Shown here piece after piece: positions 59 through 898 of a DNA stretch of 4,727 nucleotides. This DNA is from Escherichia coli (lineage in GTDB: Bacteria; Pseudomonadota; Gammaproteobacteria; Enterobacterales; Enterobacteriaceae), in assembly GCF_011045215.1 (NCBI RefSeq), contig NZ_CP049203.1; one strand, given 5' to 3'. Both the position numbers and the translations under genes were made by a program. The notes under the pieces were generated by a model. That model had not been told where the DNA came from, did no database searches, and worked only from the letters and a program-made list of their open reading frames with translations. Every line of letters begins with the position of its first letter. Positions within the stretch are counted from its first letter, which is position 1.

Positions 59-808
59 TTAACGCTTATCTCGCAACTGCGCAGCTGTATCTTTATTTCT
101 CTGATCACCTCTTTGATGTAAATTTCGATGGCTCTCTTGTGCAGCCGTCTCCCAGTCACCACGATTAACTGCAGCATTGAAATTAGGAAAATCTTTAGAT
201 AACTTAGGGATACCTAAATTAAACCCCATGTCAACCAACGCTGTTTTCCTTGAATTAGAAAAACCATCATAACCAGAATACAAAGAACGCAATCCCTTCT
301 CTGTCACTTGAACATCACTAATACATAAACCGATAACAGCATTATTTGATAAATGTAAGTTCATAGGAACTTGTCTAGAATCTTTTTTAAAATTATTAAA
401 CGCCTCTGTAATTTCCTCTTTAGATGCGGAAACCTCTTTTTCCATATCATCACCATGAGCATGCCATGTATGTGTTCTTGAAAATGGAAGGGATGCAGCC
501 ATATCAGGCGTAGATAGTAAATGACCGATTCCAACAGTAATATTTCCCTCACTGTCTTTGTACATTGTGTTTTTAAAACCTTCATGAGATTTCAAATTAT
601 TAACACACATAGTCATATAAAAACCATCATAACTCCTAGTGGAGGAAATATTTATGTGTGTCTTATCAGAAATGCCCTCATGACTATTCCCTCCAGAGTG
701 TCCACCATAGCTACTATGATTATCACCATCATAACTATGAATCGTGCCATAAGGGGTATCATGATCGTGCCATCCCGGACCTTGATTAGAACTTTCAATA
801 CCGCTCAT
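59..808 (-). CDS. Bacteriocin-like muramidase: Gly/His/Ser/Asp/Tyr-rich N-terminal region (aa 1-65) plus T4-lysozyme-type (GH24) catalytic domain (aa ~66-249)
   Basis: This is track ORF 59..898 with the start trimmed to the ATG at 808 (residue 31 of the track ORF). That ATG is preceded by AAAGAGGAAattaatATG, with GAGG 8 nt upstream. Codons 809-898 lie over the promoter and LexA box. Residues 71-100 (NLKSHEGFKNTMYKDSEGNITVGIGHLLST) align nearly residue for residue with T4 lysozyme 6-35 ([30 protein letters not shown]). E76, D85 and T91 keep the spacing of T4L E11, D20 and T26. The C-terminal RKTALVDMGFNLG...FPNFNAAVNRGDWETAA parallels T4L RRCALINMVFQMG...FTNSLRMLQQKRWDEAA. There is no N-terminal signal peptide. 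Confidence 0.85.
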   Translation of the reverse strand: MSGIESSNQGPGWHDHDTPYGTIHSYDGDNHSSYGGHSGGNSHEGISDKTHINISSTRSYDGFYMTMCVNNLKSHEGFKNTMYKDSEGNITVGIGHLLSTPDMAASLPFSRTHTWHAHGDDMEKEVSASKEEITEAFNNFKKDSRQVPMNLHLSNNAVIGLCISDVQVTEKGLRSLYSGYDGFSNSRKTALVDMGFNLGIPKLSKDFPNFNAAVNRGDWETAAQESHRNLHQRGDQRNKDTAAQLRDKR

Positions 809-849
809 ATTAATTTCCTCTTTGACTAACAAATAACAACACCACACAA

Positions 850-869
850 AACTGTGTTTATATACAGTA
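850..869 (-). promoter_or_regulatory. LexA (SOS) operator
   Basis: aaCTGtgtttatataCAGta has the CTG-N10-CAG form and matches TACTGTATATATATACAGTA at 17 of 20 positions. It lies directly downstream of the -35/-10 region and upstream of the 808 start, as in colicin promoters. I see only one box. Confidence 0.75.
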
Positions 870-898
870 TACTTACGCCTCTCCATATTCCCTGTCAA
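869..898 (-). promoter_or_regulatory. Sigma70 promoter of the bacteriocin-like gene
   Basis: On the minus strand there is a perfect TTGACA at 898..893. The -10 is weak and ambiguous: TAAGTA at 875..870 (17-nt spacer) or AAGTAT at 874..869 (18-nt spacer). It abuts the LexA box. Confidence 0.6.

What the first reader, a model, noticed from the sequence alone, without database searches (positions are those of the whole stretch)
59..898. SOS-boxed bacteriocin candidate with a T4-lysozyme fold: pesticin-like killing logic in a different, compact architecture
Seen: residues ~66-249 of a 249-aa ORF align with T4 lysozyme. The catalytic E/D/T triad is present (E76, D85, T91) with the same spacing as T4L E11/D20/T26. 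There is no signal peptide and no adjacent holin or spanin. A CTG-N10-CAG LexA box (17 of 20 to consensus) sits right after a perfect TTGACA -35. The gene is on a ColE1-type plasmid and is followed, in the same orientation, by a gene for a small protein with a signal-like N-terminus. Established: LexA control, a multicopy plasmid and a downstream immunity gene make up the colicin operon pattern. Pesticin of Yersinia pestis is the well-studied colicin-like toxin with a lysozyme fold, and its immunity protein Pim is periplasmic. Inference: this is a compact murein-hydrolysing bacteriocin. At 249 aa, with an N-terminus that has none of pesticin's import features, it is not a pesticin orthologue and may be an undescribed family.
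Basis: partly seen in the sequence, partly recalled or inferred. Interest (0 to 1): 0.88.

Follow-up and report, generated by a model that had tools for sequence, protein, structure and literature searches.

The report
Lysozyme-type colicin on small plasmid
This small E. coli plasmid carries a DNA-damage-inducible gene for a protein that joins a colicin-style entry tail to a phage-T4-type lysozyme, plus a periplasmic partner protein, and it most likely belongs to an uncharacterised family of bacteria-killing toxins that dissolve a rival's cell wall.

Summary
A 249-aa ORF (minus strand, 808→59) has a disordered Gly/Ser/His-rich N-terminus (residues 1-44) and a T4-lysozyme-fold domain. E76, D85 and T91 match T4L E11, D20 and T26 and are invariant in 22 relatives. 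One LexA box (850-869, 17/20; 0 of 200 shuffles give any match) follows a TTGACA. The backbone is ColE1-type with Rop.

The bacteriocin reading is strongly supported. Relatives in E. coli, Klebsiella and Raoultella sit on 3.9-6.8-kb plasmids as toxin → signal-peptide protein → annotated colicin lysis gene, some behind the classical double SOS box. N-termini are swapped among members and match known Tol-dependent colicins: colicin A/Y/R with the TolB box, colicin K/S4, and cloacin DF13. The window carries the cloacin-type motif. Two unrelated periplasmic immunity candidates track a variable loop of the lysozyme domain, not the N-terminal class.

It is not a pesticin orthologue. There is no sequence match, no TonB box, no receptor domain and no Pim-like partner.

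This copy has caveats. It has no lysis gene, and a T9 run splits the immunity signal peptide (a near-identical contig has T10). I found no published description. All functional claims are inferred.

The parts
893..898 (-). -35 hexamer TTGACA of the operon promoter
   Evidence: Read directly. It is conserved in the promoters of p1303_5, Raoultella L008 and K. michiganensis L004 (alignment A5). The -10 at 17-nt spacing is weak (TAAGTA), and the site was not called by the consensus scanner.
850..869 (.). Single LexA (SOS) box, AACTGTGTTTATATACAGTA, 17/20 to consensus
   Evidence: It is the only match in the window at up to 3 mismatches, and 0 of 200 shuffles give a match. LexA boxes scoring 16-17/20 lie upstream of relatives L004, L008, L010, L012 and L014. 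Overlapping double boxes occur in p1303_5 and p151-7k. A5 suggests the window's single box is a collapsed double box.
815..821 (-). Ribosome-binding site (AGAGGAA) 8 nt before the ATG
   Evidence: Read directly. GTCAAAGAGG is conserved in four relatives.
59..808 (-). Toxin gene, 249 aa plus stop: candidate muramidase bacteriocin
   Evidence: An identical or near-identical gene occurs in two independent assemblies, L002 and L005.
677..808 (-). Residues 1-44: disordered Gly/Ser/His/Asn/Asp-rich N-terminal domain, the candidate translocation domain
   Evidence: AF2 pLDDT is below 50 for residues 1-44. G+S+H+N+D+T make up 73% of the first 48 residues. This region is replaced by other colicin-type N-termini in family members.
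728..787 (-). Residues 8-27, NQGPGWHDHDTPYGTIHSYD: cloacin-DF13-type motif, a candidate Tol-system binding epitope
   Evidence: It aligns to cloacin residues 43-62, NSGPGWGTTHTPNGDIHNYN, with 12/20 identical (the pairwise BLASTP segment, query 8-47, has E 1e-8). The Serratia relative matches cloacin-type bacteriocins in about 700 plasmid records at 63% identity over 27 aa. What it binds is inferred.
62..613 (-). Residues 66-249: GH24 / T4-lysozyme-fold domain. Catalytic codons are E76 (581-583), D85 (554-556) and T91 (536-538). It has an extra beta-hairpin at residues 110-127.
101..124 (-). Residues 229-236 (NLHQRGDQ): variable loop of the lysozyme domain that tracks the immunity type
   Evidence: The ESHR-(N/D/T)L(H/N)QRGD variant goes with the type A partner. 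The ESHR-TGIG/KIGEG variant goes with the type B partner. By the HMMER alignment it corresponds to the T4L 135-145 region. That this region lines the substrate cleft comes from my own knowledge of T4L.
3..39 (-). Intercistronic hairpin (14-bp perfect stem) between the toxin stop and the immunity RBS
   Evidence: RNA fold -23.6 kcal/mol, z -4.0, and 0 of 200 shuffles do as well. The same hairpin is present in p1303_5. It has no T-tail, so its role as an attenuator or mRNA stabiliser is a guess.
4204..4709 (-). Immunity candidate (type A). The true start ATG is at 4709-4707. The listed ORF is 4683-4204 (159 aa). The mature protein is 149 aa with 2 conserved Cys.
   Evidence: Homologues 56% and 42% identical follow the toxin gene in p1303_5 and the Klebsiella 3.9-kb plasmid, each with a signal peptide. 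tblastn hits 46 plasmids in Escherichia, Klebsiella and Raoultella only; the accessions listed in both calls are the same small plasmids that carry the toxin gene. The AF2 model has pLDDT 85.6. There is no Pfam, PHROG or NCBIfam family.
4689..4697 (-). T9 homopolymer that breaks the immunity signal peptide reading frame
   Evidence: The window and JGI contig L002 have T9. Logan contig L005 has T10, which gives MLKRFFFCAMILFSGSIYA|SVS in frame.
4009..4203 (-). Spacer between the immunity gene and the replicon, where relatives carry the lysis gene. No lysis gene is present here.
   Evidence: tblastn with two family lysis proteins finds nothing. blastn against plasmids finds no homologue. No lipobox ORF exists anywhere in the window.
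2892..3086 (+). rop (context: ColE1-type replicon)
   Evidence: Pfam Rop E 3.5e-31. The backbone at 1116-4000 matches ColE1-like plasmids. GC is about 35% in the cargo against 50-60% in the backbone.

Best explanation
The locus is a colicin-type bacteriocin operon whose toxin is a muramidase.

Shown by sequence and structure prediction:
- The promoter carries a LexA box.
- The 249-aa product has no signal peptide. It has about 44 disordered residues that carry a cloacin-DF13-type motif, a conserved linker strand, and a T4-lysozyme-fold domain with an intact E/D/T triad.
- The next gene encodes a conserved protein with a signal peptide and two conserved Cys.

Inferred mechanism:
- DNA damage removes LexA, and the toxin accumulates harmlessly in the producer's cytoplasm.
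- The toxin is released. Relatives have a colicin lysis lipoprotein for this. This plasmid lacks one and would depend on another lysis route, such as a co-resident colicin plasmid or prophage lysis.
- On a target cell the disordered N-terminus engages an outer-membrane porin or receptor and a periplasmic Tol protein. The unfolded lysozyme domain is then pulled into the periplasm, as for group A colicins.
- There it cleaves the glycan strands of peptidoglycan and the cell lyses.
- The periplasmic partner protects producers, most likely by binding the lysozyme domain at a variable cleft-side loop.
For: - Lysozyme fold, catalytic triad and family-wide invariance.
- LexA box beyond chance, and recurrent across the family.
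- Toxin → immunity → 'colicin release lysis protein' order on small ColE1-like plasmids of E. coli, Klebsiella and Raoultella.
- N-terminal module swapping with bona fide Tol-dependent colicins. P0036 residues 1-18 match the colicin A/Y/R start, including DGTGWSSE. P0028 residues 1-26 match colicin K/S4. P0045 and the window match the cloacin DF13 motif.
- The partner protein co-occurs with the toxin and has a signal peptide.
- Two immunity families track the lysozyme loop variant, independent of the N-terminal class.
- The family is a tight clade, with 9 clusters at E<=1e-30 among 1.84 billion representatives, separate from ordinary phage lysozymes at 37% identity or less.
- Engineered precedent: a pesticin-T4 lysozyme chimera is imported and kills (PMC3390615).
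Against: - Nothing functional has been measured: no killing, no muramidase activity, no LexA binding, no Tol dependence.
- There is no receptor-binding domain, so how a target is recognised is unknown.
- This copy has no lysis gene.
- Its immunity start is frameshifted (T9), and a 99.4%-identical contig also carries nonsense changes in the immunity gene. This particular operon may therefore be decaying.
- The -10 element is weak.
- Some relatives lie inside predicted prophages with no obvious immunity gene next to them.
- The cloacin-type motif has no experimentally assigned binding partner that I could cite.
Confidence: 0.8

Rival explanations
1. The family is a bacteriocin, but this copy is a decaying or non-autonomous remnant. 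With no lysis gene, a frameshifted immunity signal peptide and a collapsed single SOS box, it no longer gives a producer-plus-immunity phenotype by itself.
For: - No lysis gene.
- T9 frameshift in two assemblies, against T10 in a third.
- Nonsense changes in the immunity gene of L002.
- A single box where relatives have a double box.
Against: - The toxin ORF is intact and essentially identical in three independent assemblies, with 1 nt difference in L002.
- A T9 run can be a homopolymer sequencing error, or can be bypassed by slippage (my own knowledge).
- Several characterised colicins lack lysis genes (my own knowledge).
- Single SOS boxes occur in functional bacteriocins, for example colicin Z and klebicins C and D (PMC6668396).
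Confidence: 0.2
2. It is a phage-derived endolysin or autolysin carried as plasmid or prophage cargo. It acts from within, to lyse the host or help release other products, and has no import function.
For: - Its best family matches are phage endolysin, tail lysozyme and internal virion lysozyme (PHROGs).
- Two 66%-identical relatives and two 39%-identical ones lie in predicted viral contigs.
Against: - No holin, spanin or SAR/signal sequence would let it reach the wall from inside.
- In prophage L035 the relative sits apart from a complete holin / SAR-endolysin / Rz cassette.
- The N-terminal modules are shared with colicins.
- There is a dedicated periplasmic partner and colicin lysis genes.
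Confidence: 0.05
3. It is a contact-dependent secretion effector, such as a T6SS muramidase with a periplasmic immunity protein, rather than a diffusible bacteriocin.
For: A toxin without a signal peptide paired with a periplasmic immunity protein is also the layout of T6SS cell-wall effectors (my own knowledge; pesticin-domain T6SS effector, PMC9620997, listed).
Against: - Pfam finds only the lysozyme domain, with no PAAR, MIX or Rhs-type delivery domain.
- The genes sit on 3.9-6.8-kb ColE1-like plasmids with SOS boxes and colicin lysis genes.
- The N-termini match diffusible colicins.
Confidence: 0.03

Closest known systems
Pesticin (Pst) and Pim of Yersinia pestis pPCP1
   Same: Both are plasmid-borne colicin-like toxins whose killing domain has the T4-lysozyme fold and attacks peptidoglycan in the periplasm. 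In both, the immunity protein is exported to the periplasm (PMC3390615).
   Different: - There is no detectable sequence relationship. Pfam gives Phage_lysozyme, not a pesticin family. tblastn of the toxin and of the partner hits no Yersinia plasmid. PDB hits to 'pesticin' are only the T4L chimeras.
- Pesticin is 357 aa (my own knowledge) and has a TonB box and a folded FyuA-binding receptor domain. This protein is 249 aa, has no TonB-box-like motif and no receptor domain, and has a Tol-type disordered N-terminus.
- Relatives carry a lysis gene.
Group A (Tol-dependent) colicins: cloacin DF13, colicins A/Y/R and K/S4
   Same: They share the SOS-box promoter, the small ColE1-type plasmid, the toxin-immunity(-lysis) operon, and a Gly-rich disordered N-terminal translocation domain. 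The window shares the cloacin motif. Other family members share the colicin A/Y/R TolB-box start or the colicin K/S4 start.
   Different: Those colicins are 387-700 aa, have a folded receptor-binding domain, and carry pore-forming or nuclease warheads (my own knowledge). Here the disordered tail is joined almost directly to a muramidase.
Engineered pesticin-T4 lysozyme hybrid (Patzer 2012; Lukacik 2012)
   Same: Both attach a T4-type lysozyme to a bacteriocin import module. The hybrid is imported and kills, and Pim does not inhibit it (PDB 4epi, 4arj and 4exm appear among the hits).
   Different: The hybrid is artificial and depends on TonB and FyuA. This is a natural protein with a Tol-type tail and its own immunity proteins.
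Colicin M and colicin Z (the other cell-wall-directed colicins)
   Same: They are compact colicins (271 and 237 aa) that act on the cell wall in the periplasm. Colicin Z also has a single SOS box (PMC6668396).
   Different: Colicin M cleaves lipid II (my own knowledge). Colicin Z has no lysozyme domain, uses CjrC/ExbBD, and has a four-helix membrane immunity protein on the opposite strand. Neither is related in sequence.
Phage T4 lysozyme / GH24 endolysins
   Same: They share the fold and the E/D/T catalytic triad.
   Different: Identity is only about 20-37%. This protein has an extra beta-hairpin at residues 110-127 and an N-terminal disordered domain. It has no holin or spanin partners.

Membership tests
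Colicin-like bacteriocin operon (group A type) | SOS (LexA-box) regulated promoter upstream of the toxin gene | tested here: met
   The box at 850-869 scores 17/20, and 0 of 200 shuffles give a match. Boxes recur in relatives. LexA binding itself was not tested.
Colicin-like bacteriocin operon (group A type) | Intrinsically disordered Gly-rich N-terminal translocation domain with a Tol-binding epitope | tested here: inconclusive
   Disorder is met: pLDDT is below 50 for residues 1-44 and the composition is 73% G/S/H/N/D/T. The motif is homologous to cloacin DF13 residues 43-62. Other members carry the colicin A-type TolB box. Binding to a Tol protein cannot be tested here.
Colicin-like bacteriocin operon (group A type) | Folded central receptor-binding domain | tested here: not met
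   The ordered part of the model, from about residue 45, is a linker strand plus the lysozyme domain. There is no separate domain.
Colicin-like bacteriocin operon (group A type) | C-terminal cytotoxic domain | tested here: met
   A GH24 lysozyme domain with an intact triad.
Colicin-like bacteriocin operon (group A type) | Adjacent cognate immunity gene | tested here: inconclusive
   A conserved partner with a signal peptide co-occurs with the toxin. Its start is frameshifted in this window. A protective function was not tested.
Colicin-like bacteriocin operon (group A type) | Lysis (bacteriocin release) lipoprotein gene at the operon end | tested here: not met
   It is absent from the window. 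It is present in relatives L001, L003 and L008.
Colicin-like bacteriocin operon (group A type) | Kills sensitive cells from outside | not testable with these tools
   This needs a lawn-spot assay with induced lysate or purified protein.
Pesticin family | Sequence homology to the pesticin activity domain | tested here: not met
   Pfam reports only PF00959. tblastn against 72,556 plasmids gives no Yersinia hit. PDB pesticin entries match only through their T4L chimera part.
Pesticin family | TonB box and FyuA-binding receptor domain | tested here: not met
   No [DE][TI][ILVM][ILVMTA]V motif is present. The N-terminus is related to Tol-dependent colicins. No receptor domain is present.
Pesticin family | Pim-type immunity protein | tested here: not met
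   tblastn with the partner protein hits only Escherichia, Klebsiella and Raoultella plasmids. It has no Pfam family. Only the periplasmic location is shared.
GH24 / T4-type lysozyme (PF00959) | Pfam score above the gathering threshold | tested here: met
   39.1 bits against 22.3.
GH24 / T4-type lysozyme (PF00959) | Catalytic Glu / Asp / Thr in T4L register | tested here: met
   E76, D85 and T91 correspond to E11, D20 and T26. They are invariant in 22 sequences.
GH24 / T4-type lysozyme (PF00959) | T4L fold | tested here: met
   Foldseek gives probability 1.00 and TM (target) 0.66-0.69 to many T4L entries.
GH24 / T4-type lysozyme (PF00959) | Muramidase activity | not testable with these tools
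   This needs a zymogram or muropeptide analysis.
Phage lysis cassette endolysin | Adjacent holin and spanin genes, or a SAR/signal anchor | tested here: not met
   None is present in the window. In prophage L035 the relative is separate from the phage's own holin / SAR-endolysin / Rz set.
T6SS cell-wall effector | Delivery domain (PAAR/MIX/Rhs) or linkage to T6SS genes | tested here: not met
   Pfam finds only the lysozyme domain. The gene sits on a 4.7-kb plasmid with no such genes.

The most novel reading that the evidence does not exclude
Probability: 0.3. Interest if true: 0.78.

Novelty: new variant of a known kind. Interest (0 to 1): 0.64.

Why it matters
Pesticin is the only well-studied bacteriocin that kills by hydrolysing peptidoglycan, and it is TonB-dependent and specific to Yersinia FyuA. 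A natural, compact, Tol-type lysozyme bacteriocin family would matter in four ways.

- It would add a second, independent origin of muramidase bacteriocins. The family is common on small plasmids of E. coli, Klebsiella, Raoultella, Salmonella and Shigella.
- It would give a very small model cargo for asking how a folded enzyme is threaded across the outer membrane without a receptor domain.
- It would supply two new families of specific periplasmic lysozyme inhibitors.
- It would offer ready-made scaffolds for engineered 'lysocin'-type antibacterials against Enterobacterales.

It also shows that thousands of 'hypothetical protein' or 'glycoside hydrolase family protein' annotations on cryptic small plasmids probably hide a competition weapon.

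Tried and rejected
- **Colicin Z.** It is similar in size (26.3 kDa) and directed at peptidoglycan. I read the paper. It has no lysozyme domain, its membrane immunity gene is on the opposite strand, and it depends on CjrC/ExbBD. It is unrelated.
- **E. coli ED1a small-plasmid 'pesticin'** (bioRxiv 10.64898/2026.07.22.739985). The text gives no sequence or accession, so I cannot tell whether it is this family.
- **A lysis gene in 4009-4203.** tblastn with family lysis proteins, blastn against plasmids and a lipobox ORF scan all found nothing.
- **The whole operon in complete E. coli genomes** (megablast): no match.
- **Whole N-terminus by tblastn**: it returned only family members. The cloacin link appeared only with the Serratia relative and a direct pairwise alignment.
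- **Family assignment of both immunity types.** Pfam, NCBIfam, PHROGs and PDB sequence searches gave nothing.
- **Rfam at gathering threshold**: no RNAI or other hit.
- **Literature.** Eight full-text searches for a prior description found none. Subscription journals are not covered.
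Full report
**What is in the window.** The 4727-bp window behaves as a complete circular ColE1-type plasmid. 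It has a Rop gene at 2892-3086 (Pfam E 3.5e-31). Its backbone, at about 1116-4000, matches thousands of ColE1-like plasmids at 82-94% identity. A low-GC cargo (about 35%, against 50-60% in the backbone) spans about 4009-4727 plus 1-1115. An exact copy of the downstream protein is recorded by NCBI from an E. coli 4727-bp contig. A 99.4%-identical metagenome contig (L002) and an Illumina-derived Logan contig (L005) carry the same cargo.

**Checking the observation.** The ORF lies on the minus strand.
- The mechanical ORF (59-898) starts at a TTG. The credible start is ATG 808-806, behind AGAGGAA, and gives 249 aa, 27.6 kDa and pI 6.2.
- Pfam Phage_lysozyme is above threshold at 39.1 against 22.3 bits, over residues 73-234.
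- HMMER against PDB sequences finds T4 lysozyme. It aligns L72-S99 with T4L L7-T34, which places E76, D85 and T91 on E11, D20 and T26.
- A 22-sequence family alignment keeps all three residues invariant.
- An AlphaFold2 model built on that alignment has residues 1-44 at pLDDT below 50 and the rest mostly above 90.
- Foldseek returns T4L structures at probability 1.00 and target TM 0.66-0.69.
- The model shows an extra beta-hairpin at residues 110-127, and a conserved strand at residues 51-54 that packs on the enzyme.
- The N-terminus is strongly hydrophilic, so there is no signal peptide. No holin or spanin ORF is nearby.
- The LexA box AACTGTGTTTATATACAGTA (850-869) is the only site within 3 mismatches of the consensus. 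None of 200 shuffles gives such a site.
- TTGACA lies at 898-893. The box begins 23 nt downstream and so overlies the -10/+1 region. The -10 itself is weak.

All parts of the observation are therefore confirmed, with that small correction of geometry.

**The operon in relatives.** tblastn finds the protein in 74 plasmid records. A search of 5.8 billion proteins finds about 50 clusters, nearly all 240-270 aa. They come from Escherichia, Klebsiella, Enterobacter, Citrobacter, Raoultella, Salmonella, Pantoea, Kosakonia, Rahnella, Lonsdalea and Serratia. Where named at all, they are called 'hypothetical' or 'glycoside hydrolase family protein'.

Among 1.84 billion cluster representatives, only 9 reach E<=1e-30. 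The next tier consists of ordinary lysozymes at 37% identity or less. The family is thus a tight, distinct clade.
- In E. coli p1303_5 (88% identical toxin), the annotated gene order is toxin, a 159-aa hypothetical protein, then 'colicin release lysis protein'.
- The Klebsiella 3.9-kb plasmid has the same order.
- The Raoultella plasmid L008 also has it, with the typical lipoprotein ...LLVSCQANYIRDVQGG.
- p1303_5 and Salmonella p151-7k carry the classical colicin promoter with two overlapping SOS boxes, CTGTATATAAAAC(C/T)AGTGGTTATATATACAG.
- Single boxes scoring 16-17/20 precede the gene in Klebsiella, Raoultella, Scandinavium and Rahnella loci.
- Aligning the promoters suggests that the window's single box is a collapsed version of the double box.

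**N-terminal modules.** This is the most telling result. The first 45-60 residues differ in blocks between family members, while the enzyme stays conserved.
- One subgroup (P0036, on E. coli, E. albertii, Salmonella, Shigella and Klebsiella small plasmids) starts MPGFNYGGHGDGTGWSSERG. tblastn matches residues 1-18 at 94% identity to the annotated starts of colicins A, Y and R. This stretch contains the DGTGWSSE TolB box (assignment from my own knowledge).
- A second subgroup (P0028, P0031 and Pantoea L007) starts like colicins K and S4, at 67-73% identity over 21-26 residues with modest E-values.
- The third subgroup includes the window. It carries N-x-G-P/A-G-W-x4-T-P-x-G-x-I/V-x-x-Y.
  - The Serratia member matches cloacin-type bacteriocins in about 700 plasmid records, at 63% identity over 27 residues.
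  - The window's residues 8-27 align to cloacin residues 43-62 with 12 of 20 identical.

All of these donors are Tol-dependent group A colicins (my own knowledge; Cascales et al. 2007). Modular exchange of translocation domains on a constant warhead is the hallmark of colicin-like polymorphic toxins. It is hard to reconcile with an endolysin or housekeeping role.

**The partner protein.** Downstream across the origin lies the ORF 4683-4204.
- Its homologues in p1303_5 and the Klebsiella plasmid are 56% and 42% identical. They begin with clear signal peptides and share two invariant cysteines.
- By tblastn the protein occurs in 46 plasmids, all Escherichia, Klebsiella or Raoultella. The accessions listed in both searches are the same small plasmids that carry the toxin gene.
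- In the window the real start (ATG 4709-4707, MLKRFFF...) is out of frame, because a homopolymer has 9 T. The upstream frame ends at a TGA that overlaps the internal ATG. The Logan contig has 10 T and encodes MLKRFFFCAMILFSGSIYA|SVS... in frame. Whether T9 is an error, a real mutation or a slippage site is open.
- The mature protein models confidently at pLDDT 85.6. It has no Pfam, NCBIfam, PHROG or PDB sequence match.
- A second, unrelated partner of about 210-220 aa, with a signal peptide and encoded on the opposite strand, replaces it in K. michiganensis, Pantoea, Serratia, Rahnella and the colicin A-type subgroup.

The partner type correlates with a variable loop after the conserved ESHR motif. 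NLHQRGDQ-like loops go with type A, and TGIG/KIGEG-like loops go with type B. The partner type does not correlate with the N-terminal class: Pantoea L007 has a colicin K-type tail but a type A partner. By the T4L alignment this loop corresponds to residues 135-145, which border the substrate cleft (my own knowledge). I therefore favour immunity by direct binding to the enzyme. The TolA-decoy idea remains only a minor possibility.

**What is missing or odd here.**
- The 195 bp between the partner gene and the replicon contain no lysis gene, and no lipobox ORF exists anywhere in the plasmid.
- A 14-bp perfect hairpin lies between the toxin stop and the partner's RBS (z -4.0). It is conserved in p1303_5.
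- In the viral collection, full-length relatives occur in four predicted prophage contigs. In L035 the gene lies between a complete holin / SAR-endolysin / Rz cassette and the terminase genes. It is therefore cargo, not the phage's lysin, and prophage lysis could release it.

**Comparison with known systems.** The system works like pesticin in logic: a lysozyme-fold toxin and a periplasmic immunity protein (PMC3390615). It fails every membership test for that family. There is no sequence match, no TonB box, no receptor domain and no Pim homologue. In regulation, plasmid type, operon layout and N-terminal modules it belongs with group A colicins, but it lacks their receptor-binding domain. Colicin Z, the other recently described peptidoglycan-directed colicin of similar size, is unrelated. 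The engineered pesticin-T4L hybrid shows that a T4-type lysozyme can be imported by a bacteriocin module and kill. This family looks like a natural, Tol-type counterpart. Eight full-text searches found no description of it. The searched library omits most subscription journals, so prior work cannot be excluded.

**Verdict.** It is most likely an SOS-regulated, Tol-dependent muramidase bacteriocin with a new periplasmic immunity protein (confidence about 0.8 for the family). This copy may be partly disabled (about 0.2). It is a new variant of a known kind, not a new category. I score interest at 0.64. The family is widespread yet unannotated. Its minimal architecture raises a sharp and testable question about outer-membrane protein import. 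It also brings two unknown lysozyme-inhibitor families. Every functional step remains inferred.

Noticed in passing
window 4689-4697 (with 4707-4709 and 4681-4683): A T9 run on the sense strand puts the partner gene's true ATG and signal-peptide n-region out of frame. The short upstream frame ends in a TGA that overlaps the internal ATG (ATGA). A near-identical Logan contig (L005) has T10 and an intact signal peptide. JGI contig L002 also has T9.
   Followed up: yes
L002 1597-1715 (= window 4463-4581): Four of the 19 differences between this 99.4%-identical metagenome contig and the window fall in the immunity gene. Three are G>T changes, and two of those create stop codons. The toxin gene differs at one base. 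This could be decay of immunity or a sequencing artefact.
   Followed up: partly
window 3-39: A perfect 14-bp hairpin lies between the toxin stop codon and the partner gene's RBS (-23.6 kcal/mol, z -4.0). It has no T-tail and is conserved in p1303_5. Its role is unknown; it could be an attenuator or an mRNA-stability element.
   Followed up: partly
window 850-869 versus L001 about 1880-1910 and L061 1305-1335: The window has one LexA box where the closest relatives have the classical overlapping double box. The alignment suggests a collapse of about 15 nt, which could change induction kinetics.
   Followed up: partly
window 4009-4203: This 195-bp stretch sits where relatives carry the colicin lysis gene. 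It has no homologue in 72,556 plasmids apart from a 43-nt chance-level hit, and it has no convincing ORF.
   Followed up: yes
window 1357-1591: The plasmid backbone has a dense cluster of GCACCGT-containing direct and inverted repeats: 6 copies of a 17-mer and a 32-nt inverted pair. This may be a multimer-resolution or protein-binding region.
   Followed up: no
window 3300-4000: Rfam at gathering threshold reports no RNAI or other family, although Rop and ColE1-like ori homology are present. The antisense RNA region may be too diverged for the model.
   Followed up: no
L035 1635-7583: A 66%-identical relative sits in an Enterobacter-type prophage between a complete holin / SAR-endolysin / Rz cassette (plus a Rha-like gene) and the terminase genes. 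No signal-peptide ORF lies next to it. This would be a bacteriocin carried as phage cargo and presumably released by phage lysis.
   Followed up: partly
L004 2756-4423: In a K. michiganensis IncF plasmid, the family member lies divergently next to a gene annotated 'S-type pyocin domain-containing protein'. This looks like a small bacteriocin island.
   Followed up: no
[not shown]
   Followed up: partly
L006, L009, L017 (genome-contig hits): Near-identical copies of the E. coli p1303_5-type gene appear in assemblies labelled Pseudomonas sp., Actinoallomurus and Actinomadura, on short contigs. Contamination of those assemblies by enterobacterial small plasmids is the likely cause.
   Followed up: no
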